Source of the DNA: an uncultured Candidatus Woesearchaeota archaeon
GTDB lineage: Archaea > Nanobdellota > Nanobdellia > Woesearchaeales > GW2011-AR9
Assembly: GCA_902529885.1 (NCBI GenBank)
Contig: CABZYC010000002.1
Span: 1 to 59,611, forward strand
Length of the DNA stretch: 59,611 nucleotides
Direction of reading: 5' to 3'
Every line of letters starts with the position of its first letter. The first letter of the stretch is position 1. Shown here one piece after another: positions 41,351 through 43,711 of this stretch. A program made the translations under genes and the position numbers. Below the pieces are notes generated by a model. The model had not been told where the DNA came from. It worked only from the letters and a program-made list of their open reading frames with translations, and searched no databases.

Positions 41351-41745
41351 GATTCACACTCCATTAATTGAATTAGGTTAGATTCACGACTGATGCATAA
41401 CTTACTGAAATTGGTCGCCGTTCCAACCACTGAAATATGTTCTGGAATGTTCATCTTTGTAGAGTATGAAAATGTAAGATATCCTGATTCTGTTATTCCA
41501 ACCTTATCATCAATCAAAGACACAGTATAATTCTTTGTATCCGATAAATCAAAAGATACGTTCTGATCAAACGGGAAAGAAGCAACAGAATATACAATGT
41601 ATCTTACTTGGTTAGCAATAAAAATTTGGTCAATAGAACTACTATCAACCAATTGTATTACAACGTACCACGATAAAATTGCAATTGATACAATCATAAT
41701 TGTGATCACCATTTTTGGTTCTACTAGTTGTGTTCCTTTTTTCAT
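41347..41745 (-). CDS. class III signal peptide (prepilin-like) protein, 132 aa
   Basis: N-terminus MKKG|TQLVEPKMVITIMIVSIAILSWYVVI. Confidence 0.55.
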   Translation of the reverse strand: MKKGTQLVEPKMVITIMIVSIAILSWYVVIQLVDSSSIDQIFIANQVRYIVYSVASFPFDQNVSFDLSDTKNYTVSLIDDKVGITESGYLTFSYSTKMNIPEHISVVGTATNFSKLCISRESNLIQLMECES

Positions 41746-41754
41746 TCATACACC

Positions 41755-41826
41755 TTAATTCCTATCATCAAACTGAGCCATCTGCTTATCGTGGTCAGTG
41801 CCACCCATCTCACCTGGGATATAATC
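41755..41826 (-). repeat. 72-nt direct repeat copy 1 (3' end of paralogue A)
   Basis: 69 of 72 nt are identical to 42656-42727. Identity drops sharply beyond that. Confidence 0.9.
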
Positions 41827-42654
41827 CATCTCAGTAGTTTGTAATGTTTGGTCGGTATAATCGCCATCATCAAAGCGTTTATGATATTGGTATACGTAAA
41901 CTGTTCGATCATTATTATCAGAACTAACATACACAGTTCTACGACGAGAAAGAATTTGGTTATTTATTGCTATACCTTTCTGATTTTCCTCATCATAGTC
42001 TAAATCATAGACATATTCTCTTGTTGCTAATCGAGCTAAACCACGCTCAATAGCCCACCCGTTTGAAAATTCATAAATCTGTTTATCACCATACACACCA
42101 GAATATTCAATATGGAACCCTAAATCGTTAAAACAACGTGCATTATCATCTGACAATATTATGTTTTCACCAGATTTACTAACTTCGAAATCTTTCATGT
42201 AACACAAACAGTTATCTTTACAAGTTGAAGGGACTGCTATCTTGACTAGAATTCCGTTATTACTTGCAAAACTGCAAGCTAACCAAGTTGCACCTAAACT
42301 TAACCATTTCCAATTCCCTACATCATCCCAGCAGTCGTCCTCTGCAACATCTTCATAATTCAAATATTTTGCTGATTCATATTTAAGATATTTCATATCT
42401 AAATTTTCACTACTATCTTCAAAAAAAACAATGGCGCTAGGGTGATCAAGTATAACAATGTGGGCACGTTCACGTTCATGCTCGCCCTCACTTGATTCCA
42501 CTAAAAATTCTTGGAACTTGTCAAACCCGTACATACTTTCATCATGGAGACTGTACGCAATCAATAAACTTACAACAAGTACAAGCAACGCTATCAAAAC
42601 GTCACCTAAATGAGCCATCATCCATGAAACTTGCCCTTTCTTTCCTACTTGCAT
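41755..42654 (-). CDS. class III signal peptide (prepilin-like) protein, 299 aa, paralogue A (start at internal ATG 42654)
   Basis: N-terminus MQVGKKG|QVSWMMAHLGDVLIALLVLVVSLLIAYS aligns with the paralogue upstream. The ORF-track extension to 42891 overlaps that paralogue and reads repeat sequence in another frame. Confidence 0.6.
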   Translation of the reverse strand: MQVGKKGQVSWMMAHLGDVLIALLVLVVSLLIAYSLHDESMYGFDKFQEFLVESSEGEHERERAHIVILDHPSAIVFFEDSSENLDMKYLKYESAKYLNYEDVAEDDCWDDVGNWKWLSLGATWLACSFASNNGILVKIAVPSTCKDNCLCYMKDFEVSKSGENIILSDDNARCFNDLGFHIEYSGVYGDKQIYEFSNGWAIERGLARLATREYVYDLDYDEENQKGIAINNQILSRRRTVYVSSDNNDRTVYVYQYHKRFDDGDYTDQTLQTTEMDYIPGEMGGTDHDKQMAQFDDRN

Positions 42655-42655
42655 A

Positions 42656-42727
42656 TTAATTCCTATCATCAAACTGAGCCATCTGCTTATCATGGTCAGT
42701 GCCACCCATTTCACCTGGGACATAATC
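42656..42727 (-). repeat. 72-nt direct repeat copy 2 (3' end of paralogue B)
   Basis: 69 of 72 nt are identical to 41755-41826. It encodes ..PGEMGGTDHDKQMAQFDDRN plus the stop. Confidence 0.9.
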
Positions 42728-43459
42728 ATGCTCTGTTGACTGCGATGTTTCATCAAACAAATTTTCTCCATCTGTCCGTTTCTGAAACTGGTACACGTAC
42801 ACTGTTGAATCATCTTGGTCATAACTGATATAAACTGTTCTTCTCCTGGCTTGTATTTGGTTACTAATTGCAGCACCCTTAGAATTTTCATCTAATTCAA
42901 CATCGTACACCTCATCATTATCTGTTACTAGCTCAGCTAATCCCCTCTCAATCAGCCATCCATTTCTCAGATCATAAATATCTTTATCACCGTACACTGC
43001 AGAAAAACTTAATGGGAAACCAATATTATTGTAACATTTAGCTTTATCTTCACTTAAAGTTGTGTAAAGGCCACTTGTACTTACCTCAAAATTTTTCATA
43101 TAACACAAACAATTTTTATCACAAACTGATGGTACTTCAACCTCAATTTGACCAATATATTGATTAAGATAGTCAACCCCATCAAAGGAATTATATGAAT
43201 AAATTAAGTTCTGCTTACCTTCAAAATAAACAATAGCGCTAGGGTTATCTAAAATGACAATATGAGCATGTTCACGTTCATAATCCCCTGAATAAGAATC
43301 TTGTAGCACGTCATGAAAATCATCAAAACCAAAAAAACTTTCATCATGAAGACTGTAACTTAACAATATACCCATGGTTACAACAAATAAGGTTAATAAT
43401 ACGTCCCCTAAATGTGCAGTCATCCATTCTATCTGTGCTCTTCTCAAAATTAATCCCAA
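42656..43459 (-). CDS. class III signal peptide (prepilin-like) protein, 267 aa, paralogue B (TTG start; alternative TTG at 43447 gives MRRAQ...)
   Basis: N-terminus ..LILRRA|QIEWMTAHLGDVLLTLFVVTMGILLSYS. The C-terminal 20 aa are identical to paralogue A. Confidence 0.6.
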   Translation of the reverse strand: MGLILRRAQIEWMTAHLGDVLLTLFVVTMGILLSYSLHDESFFGFDDFHDVLQDSYSGDYEREHAHIVILDNPSAIVYFEGKQNLIYSYNSFDGVDYLNQYIGQIEVEVPSVCDKNCLCYMKNFEVSTSGLYTTLSEDKAKCYNNIGFPLSFSAVYGDKDIYDLRNGWLIERGLAELVTDNDEVYDVELDENSKGAAISNQIQARRRTVYISYDQDDSTVYVYQFQKRTDGENLFDETSQSTEHDYVPGEMGGTDHDKQMAQFDDRN

Positions 43460-43465
43460 TCACCA

Positions 43466-43711
43466 TTAATCGTCATCGTCATCATCACCAGATGACCTGT
43501 CGCATTTTGAAGTGTCACTAGTATCTGTGTCCATCTGATCAGGGATCCCATCACAATCTATATCTCTTGTAACTGCATCAAAACCTTGATTAAACCCATC
43601 TTTACCTTTACCTATGCTTCCAACTGAAAAGCCTATTAAAAGAAGTAAAATTATCACTGCTAACACCCCAAAGATGATTATCATCCATACTGCATCATTC
43701 CCTCGTTTCAT
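43466..43711 (-). CDS. class III signal peptide (prepilin-like) mini-protein, 81 aa, with acidic Asp-rich Ca-binding-like tail
   Basis: The internal ATG at 43711 forms ATGA with the upstream stop. N-terminus MKRG|NDAVWMIIIFGVLAVIILLLLIGF. Tail: DIDCDGIPDQMDTDTSDTSKCDRSSGDDDDDD. Confidence 0.6.
   Translation of the reverse strand: MKRGNDAVWMIIIFGVLAVIILLLLIGFSVGSIGKGKDGFNQGFDAVTRDIDCDGIPDQMDTDTSDTSKCDRSSGDDDDDD

What the first reader, a model, noticed from the sequence alone, without database searches (positions are those of the whole stretch)
41755..43459. Tandem paralogues whose 3' ends are nearly identical at nucleotide level (69/72 nt) while the rest has diverged: a conserved C-terminal tail PGEMGGTDHDKQMAQFDDRN
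**Seen in the sequence**
- Genes 41755-42654 and 42656-43459 are separated by a single nucleotide.
- Both start with ...[KR][GA]|Q(V/I)(S/E)WM.AHLGDVL.
- Both end with the identical 20-aa peptide PGEMGGTDHDKQMAQFDDRN.
- The last 72 nt, including the stop, differ at only 3 positions (41755-41826 versus 42656-42727). Upstream of that, nucleotide identity falls off abruptly and the proteins are only moderately similar.

**Inference**
This points to localised gene conversion or very strong selection on the tail. The tail could be a recognition, sorting or processing signal, or a metal or partner-binding tag (His/Asp-rich: GGTDHD).

**Side effect on the ORF track**
The repeat also creates two artefacts, namely the 79-codon N-terminal extension of ORF 41755-42891 and ORF 41742-41930.
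Basis: seen in the sequence. Interest (0 to 1): 0.6.

Follow-up and report, generated by a model that had tools for sequence, protein, structure and literature searches.

The report
Gene-converted tail in paired archaeal pilin-like genes
Two neighbouring genes for pilin-like surface proteins of a tiny marine DPANN archaeon share an almost identical 3' end because about 50-65 bases were recently copied from one gene into the other, over a short C-terminal peptide that is strictly conserved in this small clade and whose function is unknown.

Summary
Genes A (41755-42654, -) and B (42656-43459, more likely starting at 43447, -) lie 1 nt apart. They are 66% identical at nucleotide level overall but 69/72 identical at the 3' end.

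Cause: a short, one-way gene conversion from A into B that is specific to this genome.
- At 186 sites that tell A-type from B-type orthologues, B is B-type everywhere except the last six (window 42674-42719). The switch falls between 42721 and 42719.
- Every other assembly examined (at least six) keeps a distinct B tail, ELGGTDHDKQMT[G/E]FDDRN. A and B there match at 57-60 of 72 nt.
- A 9-nt indel shared by both paralogues within each clade points to an older conversion at the same spot.

Selection on the tail is also real, but it acts on the protein. P[G/F]ExGGTDHDKQM is kept in all clade members (one lineage has F at position 2), with synonymous codon variation. There is no RNA structure.

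The proteins are DPANN-specific and have no Pfam family. Each has a class III (prepilin-like) leader, a long N-terminal helix and a domain whose fold matches only Woesearchaeota/Nanobdellota hypothetical proteins. The tail is modelled as disordered and occurs in only these two genes of the genome.

The tail's function is unresolved. A docking motif for a shared partner is my best guess. The phenomenon is ordinary and interest is modest.

The parts
41755..42654 (-). Gene A, the long paralogue (299 aa). Leader MQVGKKG|Q, N-terminal helix, globular domain with a 32-aa Trp/Cys-rich insert (about residues 102-133), then a disordered tail. It is the donor of the converted tract.
   Evidence: ORF and translation. 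Exact protein is in the public collection from the 59,611-nt contig. Orthologues with the insert in both clades. AF2 model, pLDDT 77.
42656..43459 (-). Gene B, the short paralogue. It is 267 aa from TTG 43459, or more likely 263 aa from TTG 43447, which gives MRRA|Q. It is the recipient of the converted tract.
   Evidence: The NCBI-called product P0046 is 263 aa. AF2 model, pLDDT 84.
42674..42719 (-). Minimal converted tract in B (46 nt). At every A/B-diagnostic site except 42692, B carries the A-type base. The largest possible tract is 42656-42720 (65 nt), bounded by the B-type site at 42721 and by the B-context base 42655 after the stop.
   Evidence: Site-pattern analysis against L009 and L004 orthologues. 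Differences between window B and L009 B cluster at 19-64 nt from the 3' end, with none at 65-152.
41773..41818 (-). Donor segment in A that corresponds to the minimal tract (largest possible 41755-41819). A keeps the A-type state here, so the transfer was not reciprocal.
   Evidence: Window A against L009 A: 70/72.
42677..42718 (-). Codons of B for PGEMGGTDHDKQMA. The first 13 are the clade-conserved motif P[G/F]ExGGTDHDKQM. The same motif in A lies at 41779-41817.
   Evidence: Alignment of 8 proteins, with P, E, GGTDHDKQM invariant (G249 is listed as invariant there, but the L009 lineage, seen later, has F). Codon table of 12 genes, with 2-4 codons at the conserved residues other than Met.
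42656..42891 (-). Segment of B's 3' part that is read in A's frame as the 79-codon extension of ORF 41755-42891. This is an ORF-track artefact that only this genome has.
   Evidence: The upstream open frame is 79 codons here, 8 in L004/L009/L018 and 2 in L008/L016.
41742..41930 (-). 62-codon ORF that reads A's tail in the same alternative frame and ends in the ATGA overlap with the next gene's start (41745). It is an artefact.

Best explanation
A and B are old tandem paralogues. They encode a DPANN (Woesearchaeota-type) family of pilin-like surface proteins. Each has a class III-type leader, a hydrophobic N-terminal helix, a four-Cys globular domain and a flexible acidic C-terminal tail of about 35 residues that carries the strictly conserved peptide P[G/F]ExGGTDHDKQM.

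Shown: in the lineage of this genome, a stretch of 46-65 nt covering that peptide was copied one way from A into B (interlocus gene conversion). It changed B's tail from ...ELGGTDHDKQMTGFDDRN to A's ...EMGGTDHDKQMAQFDDRN, gave 69/72 nt identity, and opened the spurious 79-codon frame.

Inferred: the tail is the only place where this can happen. Protein-level selection keeps it the most similar DNA segment of the two genes (57-60 of 72 nt in unconverted genomes, against about 66% for the body). An older conversion at the same spot, marked by a shared 9-nt indel, fits this.

Inferred, low confidence (about 35%): the tail works as a short linear docking motif on a flexible linker, bound by one partner common to both paralogues. 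The partner could be another part of the pilin-like apparatus or a host surface.
For: 1. Phylogenetic incongruence with a sharp breakpoint. At 186 sites where A-type (L009_A = L004_A) and B-type (L009_B = L004_B) orthologues differ, window B is B-type throughout, apart from three isolated A-like sites and a few sites matching neither type. The last six sites, 64 to 20 nt from the 3' end, are all A-type. With L009 alone as reference, 12 of the last 13 sites are A-type.
2. Clustered differences. Window B and L009 B differ at 13 positions between 19 and 64 nt from the end, and at none between 65 and 152.
3. Tail similarities. Window B's last 72 nt match L009_A at 69/72 but its own orthologue L009_B at only 59/72.
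4. Other assemblies. All others examined keep the B-type tail: L004/L005/L006/L007, L009, L017, L018, L019, P0044 and P0045. A against B over the last 72 nt is 57-60/72 in six other genomes.
5. The donor is unchanged. Window A against L009 A is 70/72.
6. Not a copy of A's reads. The tract differs from window A at two synonymous sites, GAA and CAT. Unconverted A and B tails share at most 18 identical bases in a row. From how k-mer assemblers work (inference), they would not join them.
7. Older event. The body tree groups all A-types (97/95), so the duplication predates the split of the two clades. Yet the ending TTT-[GATGATAGG]-AAT-TAA (FDDRN) against TTT-AAT-TAA (FN) follows the clade, not the paralogue.
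8. Selection on the protein, not the nucleotides. The conserved motif residues use 2-4 different codons across 12 genes. RNA folding z-scores are +0.84 and +0.75. Rfam gave only two weak matches, both outside the tails.
9. Protein nature. [KR][GA]|Q leaders and a hydrophobic helix. AF2 helix 3-38 plus an alpha/beta domain, with the tail at pLDDT 39-51 and a short helix over HDKQMAQ. A prepilin peptidase (A24) and a T2SSE-type ATPase are encoded in the genome. The genes sit in an array of about 18 leader-bearing genes.
Against: - The converted B allele is seen in one assembly only, the window's own MAG. The reads behind it were not available, so an assembly or binning artefact is not formally excluded.
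- Before the event, the homology flanking the tract was very short (at most 18 nt identical). That is little for classical RadA-dependent recombination. The mechanism may instead be template switching, and this is not established.
- One site inside the tract (CAT, window 42692) is B-type or a later mutation, so the tract may be patchy.
- Nothing here tests the docking-motif reading of the tail.
- Pfam Class_IIIsignal did not match these proteins. Processing by the peptidase is inferred from the motif only.
Confidence: 0.85

Rival explanations
1. Assembly artefact. The A-type patch in B was produced by the metagenome assembler or a polishing step that mixed reads of the two paralogues. The real B gene has the B-type tail seen in all relatives.
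For: Only the window's own contig carries this allele among the seven members of B's 90% cluster. The source is a MAG from a community with several related strains.
Against: - A patch needs two crossovers within 65 nt.
- Unconverted A and B tails share at most 18 identical bases in a row. That is below usual k-mer sizes, so the junction words would have to exist in reads (inference from how de Bruijn assemblers work).
- The patch differs from the window's own A tail at two sites. Borrowed A reads would not give that.
- Weak hint only: a contig of an unrelated 2023 marine run (X4, about 42661-42814, worked out from the from_end values) spans the breakpoint, and no differences are listed for it between 42674 and 42718. 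The table was truncated, so this is not solid.
Confidence: 0.08
2. No conversion. The identity reflects selection on the nucleotide sequence itself: an RNA element, an internal promoter or ribosome-binding region for the downstream gene, or an overlapping gene in the alternative frame.
For: - Each tail lies directly upstream of the next gene's start, and the last codons contain AGGA 6 nt before A's ATG.
- The alternative frame is open over both tails.
Against: - Relatives vary synonymously at the conserved motif codons other than Met.
- A and B tails match at only 57-60 of 72 nt in six other genomes.
- RNA folding is no better than shuffles, z = +0.84 and +0.75. Rfam gave only two weak matches, both outside the tails.
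- The alternative frame is open for only 2-8 codons upstream of A in relatives.
- The frame offset between B and A differs between the clades (coordinates).
Confidence: 0.03
3. The donor was not the resident A gene. It was foreign DNA: homologous recombination with a related strain whose B allele already carried an A-like tail. The event would then be allelic exchange, with the paralogue conversion further back in another lineage.
For: - Related strains co-occur in marine metagenomes.
- The tract's GAA matches L009_A rather than the window's own A, which has GAG.
Against: - No B allele with an A-type tail was found in any other assembly.
- The tract is far shorter than typical imported segments, and the flanks are plain window-lineage B.
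- It would still require a paralogue conversion somewhere, so it only moves the event.
Confidence: 0.04

Closest known systems
Interlocus (ectopic) gene conversion between tandem paralogues, with mosaic divergence and concerted evolution. General treatments: PMC10503786, and bioRxiv 10.1101/2025.10.29.685298 on tandem paralogues.
   Same: - One-way transfer of a short tract between duplicated genes.
- Paralogues within one genome are more alike in the tract than orthologues are.
- The breakpoint is sharp.
- The tract is confined to the segment that selection keeps most similar.
   Different: - The tract is very short (46-65 nt) and had only 18 nt or less of perfect flanking homology.
- The host is a 0.68-Mb DPANN archaeon.
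- The event covers a C-terminal peptide motif rather than a whole domain.
Archaeal type IV pilin-like proteins with class III signal peptides (minor pilins of Epd/Aap-type and other T4F loci; overview in PMC13705601).
   Same: - Short basic leader ending in [KR][GA], followed by a hydrophobic helix.
- Long N-terminal alpha-helix ahead of a globular beta-rich domain in the model.
- The genes lie in an array of similar genes.
- A prepilin peptidase and a secretion ATPase are encoded elsewhere in the genome.
   Different: - No Pfam Class_IIIsignal match.
- No convincing structural match of the globular domain to solved pilins. The best pilin rows reach Z 2.2-2.4.
- The conserved disordered C-terminal tail motif is not a described pilin feature, as far as my own knowledge and the paper above go.
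Pilin gene conversion in Neisseria (pilS to pilE antigenic variation). Cited from general knowledge.
   Same: Non-reciprocal transfer of short tracts between pilin-type gene copies, guided by short conserved segments.
   Different: In Neisseria the process diversifies an expressed gene from silent cassettes. Here it homogenises a conserved tail between two intact, co-transcribed-looking genes. Nothing suggests a dedicated mechanism.
C-terminal sorting tags such as PGF-CTERM/archaeosortase. Cited from general knowledge.
   Same: A short conserved motif beginning with PG at the extreme C-terminus of secreted archaeal proteins.
   Different: No hydrophobic helix or basic cluster follows the motif, the tail is acidic and hydrophilic, and only two genes in the genome carry it.

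Membership tests
Interlocus gene conversion | In the tract, the recipient paralogue groups with the donor paralogue of its own genome and not with its orthologues. Outside the tract it groups with its orthologues. | tested here: met
   state strings are B-type except for the last 6 strict sites, or 12 of the last 13 looser sites; 69/72 to A-type against 59/72 to L009_B; the body tree places window B with the B orthologues.
Interlocus gene conversion | Non-reciprocal: the donor copy is unchanged. | tested here: met
   Window A is A-type at all tail sites and matches L009_A at 70/72.
Interlocus gene conversion | The event is real in the DNA of the organism (read-level or independent assembly support). 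| tested here: inconclusive
   The source reads were not among the runs served. The runs laid are related strains kept as short contigs. No other assembly carries the allele.
Archaeal class III signal peptide (type IV pilin-like) proteins | Short positively charged leader ending in [KR][GA] at the cleavage site, followed by about 20 hydrophobic residues. | tested here: met
   MQVGKKG|QVSWMMAHLGDVLIALLVLVVSLLIAY and MRRA|QIEWMTAHLGDVLLTLFVVTMGILLSY. Conserved in orthologues.
Archaeal class III signal peptide (type IV pilin-like) proteins | Match to the curated profile (Pfam PF04021 Class_IIIsignal). | tested here: not met
   No Pfam family at E <= 0.1 for either protein. The nearest Atlas cluster that carries PF04021 scores only 0.76.
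Archaeal class III signal peptide (type IV pilin-like) proteins | Pilin architecture: a long N-terminal alpha-helix ahead of a globular domain. | tested here: inconclusive
   The AF2 models have helix 3-38 (B) and 5-35 (A) followed by an alpha/beta domain. Solved pilins and pseudopilins match only at Z 2.2-2.4.
Archaeal class III signal peptide (type IV pilin-like) proteins | Cognate prepilin peptidase (A24) and assembly ATPase in the genome. | tested here: met
   PF01478 at G000:C5:23123-23422 (40.2 bits, over the cut-off). PF00437 at G000:C1:27561-28061 (60.1 bits).
Archaeal class III signal peptide (type IV pilin-like) proteins | Leader actually cleaved, and protein incorporated into a filament. 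| not testable with these tools
   Needs N-terminal sequencing or mass spectrometry and imaging of an uncultured organism.
C-terminal sorting signals (PGF-CTERM / archaeosortase type) | Motif followed by a hydrophobic transmembrane segment and basic residues, and present on several secreted proteins of the genome. | tested here: not met
   The tail after PGE is GGTDHDKQMAQFDDRN, hydrophilic and acidic. A six-frame motif scan of the whole 676,741-nt genome finds it in these two genes only.
RTX-type Ca-binding repeats (GGxGxDxUx) | Tandem nonapeptides with Gly at positions 1, 2 and 4 and Asp at position 6. | tested here: not met
   There is a single GGTDHDKQM unit with Asp at position 4, and no repeats. 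No Pfam match.

The most novel reading that the evidence does not exclude
The tail is a shared address peptide. Both paralogues would use it to dock onto one receptor, either within the DPANN surface apparatus or on the host cell. Repeated gene conversion would then be the way the two copies are kept matched to that receptor as it evolves. This would be concerted evolution of a short linear motif, serving partner recognition in a symbiont's attachment machinery.
Probability: 0.2. Interest if true: 0.6.

Novelty: new member of a known kind. Interest (0 to 1): 0.33.

Why it matters
The mechanism, gene conversion between tandem paralogues, is textbook. The case is nevertheless useful in four ways.
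- It is a clean natural example of a very short conversion tract (46-65 nt) in a genome-reduced DPANN archaeon. Orthologues from several metagenomes date it and fix its direction.
- It shows that a strongly selected peptide motif can act as the only recombination-competent island in otherwise diverged paralogues.
- It flags a conserved, disordered C-terminal peptide, P[G/F]ExGGTDHDKQM, on an unannotated Woesearchaeota-type pilin-like family. The family sits in an operon that earlier notes of this scan propose as candidate attachment machinery, so the peptide gives a concrete handle (pull-downs, tail swaps) for finding interaction partners.
- It warns annotators that the 378-aa ORF 41755-42891 is a by-product of the conversion, and that B probably starts at 43447.

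Tried and rejected
- Read-level check. The look-up of sequencing runs returned only runs holding 23% or less of the sampled words. Read laying on X1-X4 gave short contigs of related strains (mostly 90-95% alike). The difference table was truncated (256 rows not shown), so neither the converted nor the unconverted tail could be confirmed there.
- Complex prediction of the A and B ectodomains with their tails: no verdict (score 0.01, mark 0.32). This is evidence neither for nor against binding.
- Fold searches of the B model. Foldseek against PDB gave nothing at E <= 0.001. VIA-align wide gave a best Z of 3.3 (PAS-like fragments), with pilins and pseudopilins at Z 2.2-2.4. The fold is not identified, and that does not prove it is new.
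- PDB sequence searches with the family profile and with the 39-residue tail alone: no match.
- Pfam on both proteins and on eight neighbours: no credible family.
- The search for related loci. In genome contigs, 59 pattern matches were found and none was a relative. In metagenome contigs only the already known MDTB01064814.1 was found.
- RNA element idea: Rfam at E <= 1 gave only two chance-level snoRNA rows outside the tails. Folding z-scores were positive.
- Programmed frameshift fusing B to A through the open alternative frame: rejected. The frame is open only in this genome, and the B/A frame offset differs between the clades.
- Genome-wide sorting tag: rejected.
Full report
**1. What is there**

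On the minus strand, gene A (41755-42654, 299 aa) follows gene B (42656-43459) after a single base. B is 267 aa from the first TTG. The public annotation of the same contig starts four codons later (TTG 43447, 263 aa, MRRA|QIEW...), and that start fits the leader pattern of the neighbouring genes better.

The two proteins align over their full length at 58% identity. A carries a 32-residue Trp/Cys-rich insert. Both end in PGEMGGTDHDKQMAQFDDRN. The last 72 nt, stop included, differ at three positions.

**2. More than chance**

- Over 798 ungapped aligned nucleotides the genes are 65.9% identical.
- The best 72-nt window outside the tail has 58 matches.
- No shuffle out of 20,000 reached 69/72; the maximum was 66.
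- The proportion of synonymous differences is 0.19 in the last 20 codons and 0.68 in the body.
- Where the residue is the same, the codon is the same in 18 of 20 tail cases against 67 of 127 in the body (p = 0.001).

The two ORF-track artefacts are confirmed too.

**3. Relatives decide the cause**

A search of 5.8 billion proteins found only six clusters of close relatives. Their contigs carry the same tandem pair in the same operon:

- L004 to L007
- L008
- L009
- L015 and L016
- L017 to L019

A tree of the protein bodies puts all insert-bearing A-types together (support 97/95). The duplication is therefore older than the split between the window's clade (window, L009/L017/L018, L004, L019) and a second clade (L008, L015, L016).

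In every other assembly of the window's clade, B ends in ...P[G/F]ELGGTDHDKQMT[G/E]FDDRN and A ends in ...PGEMGGTDHDKQMAQFDDRN. Only the window's B has the A-type ending.

The site-by-site pattern is as follows.

- At 186 sites where the A-type and B-type orthologues of L009 and L004 consistently differ, window B is B-type along the whole gene. The exceptions are three isolated A-like sites and a few sites that match neither type.
- The last six diagnostic sites, 64 to 20 nt from the 3' end, are all A-type.
- With L009 alone as reference, 12 of the last 13 sites are A-type.
- The switch lies between window 42721 (B-type) and 42719 (A-type).
- Window B and L009 B differ at 13 positions between 19 and 64 nt from the end, and at none over the next 88 nt.
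- Window B's last 72 nt match L009_A at 69/72 and its own orthologue L009_B at 59/72.
- Window A is unchanged, at 70/72 to L009_A.

In six other genomes the A and B tails match at 57-60 of 72 nt.

This is the footprint of a non-reciprocal A-to-B gene conversion. The tract is at least 46 nt (42674-42719) and at most 65 nt (42656-42720). It is specific to the window's lineage.

**4. An older event at the same place**

In the window's clade both paralogues end TTT GAT GAT AGG AAT TAA (F-DDR-N). In the second clade most genes end TTT AAT TAA (F-N): B of L008, L015 and L016, and A of L016. A of L008 ends TTT AGG TGA instead.

The 9-nt difference (GATGATAGG) therefore follows the clade and not the paralogue, although the paralogues separated before the clades did. 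The simplest reading is an earlier conversion of the extreme 3' end. Parallel identical indels are the alternative.

**5. Selection on the peptide, not on the DNA**

The motif P[G/F]ExGGTDHDKQM is kept in all 12 genes compared. One lineage (L009, L017, L018) has F at position 2. The conserved residues other than Met are written with two to four different codons across those genes.

The tail RNA folds no better than shuffled sequence (z = +0.84 and +0.75). Rfam finds nothing there. The long alternative frame that makes ORF 41755-42891 is open for 79 codons only in this genome, against 8 codons in L004/L009/L018 and 2 in L008/L016. It is therefore a by-product of the conversion, not a conserved feature.

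Inference: because the motif is held constant at protein level, the tail is the most similar DNA segment of the two genes even without conversion (about 80% against 66%). That is probably why exchange happens there and nowhere else.

Before the event, the longest perfect match between the two tails was 18 nt. This is short for canonical homologous recombination, so template switching during replication is an equally plausible route. This step is inferred and was not tested.

**6. Artefact?**

The converted allele is seen only in the window's own assembly, and its reads could not be examined. Three points argue against an artefact.

- A patch needs two switches within 65 nt.
- The unconverted tails share no word long enough for a k-mer graph to join them (plus inference).
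- The tract differs from the window's own A tail at two synonymous sites.

I put the artefact at about 8%.

**7. What the proteins are**

*Host.* The window encodes RadA and an RPA-like protein. The genome is 676,741 nt in 23 contigs, 95% complete. The nearest protein clusters and fold matches are hypothetical proteins of Nanobdellota/Woesearchaeota. The DNA recurs in marine metagenomes.

*Operon.* A and B sit in a run of about 18 minus-strand genes (39556-59601). Most of these start with M[KR][KR]G-type leaders and a hydrophobic helix. A prepilin peptidase and a T2SSE-type ATPase are encoded elsewhere in the genome.

*Structure.*
- AlphaFold models (B pLDDT 84, A pLDDT 77) show a long N-terminal helix, a second helix and a beta-rich domain. 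Four Cys are invariant across the wider family.
- No Pfam family, solved structure or PDB sequence matches.
- The tail, about the last 35 residues, has pLDDT 39-51, with a short helix over HDKQMAQ.

*Wider family.*
- A profile search of 1.84 billion representatives found 31 clusters. The distant ones (about 210-250 aa) align only to the helix and core and lack the tail motif.
- Two same-family genera have a single-copy, tail-less homologue in the same gene order.
- The duplication and the tail motif are therefore innovations of a narrow clade.
- The motif occurs nowhere else in the genome.

**8. Function of the tail**

Nothing here tests it.

- *Docking motif (about 35%).* A conserved short motif on a disordered acidic linker, present on both paralogues and evolving in concert, is what one expects of a peptide that docks onto one shared partner. 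This is my preferred reading.
- *Metal site formed by E/D/H.* Possible, but it does not fit RTX or other known repeats.
- *General sorting or processing tag.* Unlikely, because only two carriers exist and no hydrophobic segment follows.

A complex prediction of A with B gave no verdict.

**9. Verdict**

The phenomenon is a known kind, interlocus gene conversion over a selected motif, in a new and poorly known setting. The unexplained part is the role of the conserved tail in a DPANN-specific pilin-like family.

Earlier notes of this scan on the same window describe the surrounding operon as candidate attachment machinery. I used them only for context and did not test them, beyond confirming the leader pattern and the DPANN affiliation.

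Noticed in passing
window 43447-43459: B's longest ORF starts at TTG 43459, directly after a GGTGA. The public annotation and the orthologues start at the TTG/GTG at 43447, which gives the canonical leader MRRA|Q. The first four codons of the 267-aa ORF are probably not translated.
   Followed up: partly
L019:2250-2438: The A-type gene on contig k141_1318933 switches after ...TEEDYI into unrelated GC-rich sequence and runs on for about 60 codons. The contig end looks chimeric, or it is a real disruption. This row was left out of the trees.
   Followed up: no
L009:2378-3181, L017:264-1043, L018:696-1499: In these three near-identical assemblies, B has PFE instead of the otherwise conserved PGE. 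It also has a 4-residue insertion (QHLF) inside the conserved Cys motif, CxxxxNCLCYM. So the G of the motif is not absolutely required.
   Followed up: no
window 42256-42351 (A residues ~102-133): The A-specific 32-residue insert (DVAEDDCWDDVGNWKWLSLGATWLACSFASNN) is rich in Trp and has two extra Cys. It is conserved in A-types of both clades and is modelled at only moderate confidence, with one helix. It is the main structural difference between the paralogues.
   Followed up: partly
L012:1444-2433 and L013:24-2121: Distant same-family genera keep the gene order: hairpin protein, small Asp/Cys-rich prepilin, this family as a single tail-less copy, then proteins of about 150 and 170 aa. In L013 the small acidic protein is replaced by a 471-aa protein that begins with the same DCD..D..D..CPC module.
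   Followed up: no
window 41746-41759 and 42655-42660: The last codons of both genes (GAT AGG AAT TAA) put an AGGA 6 nt before A's ATG, and A's stop is followed by GGTG before the next ATG. The extreme 3' end therefore doubles as the ribosome-binding region of the next gene. This may add some constraint on the final 10-12 nt.
   Followed up: no
window 43419-43496 (-) and 43580-43649 (+): Two weak C/D-box snoRNA-like Rfam rows (21-25 bits against gathering scores of 50; E about 0.35-0.4). Most likely chance.
   Followed up: no
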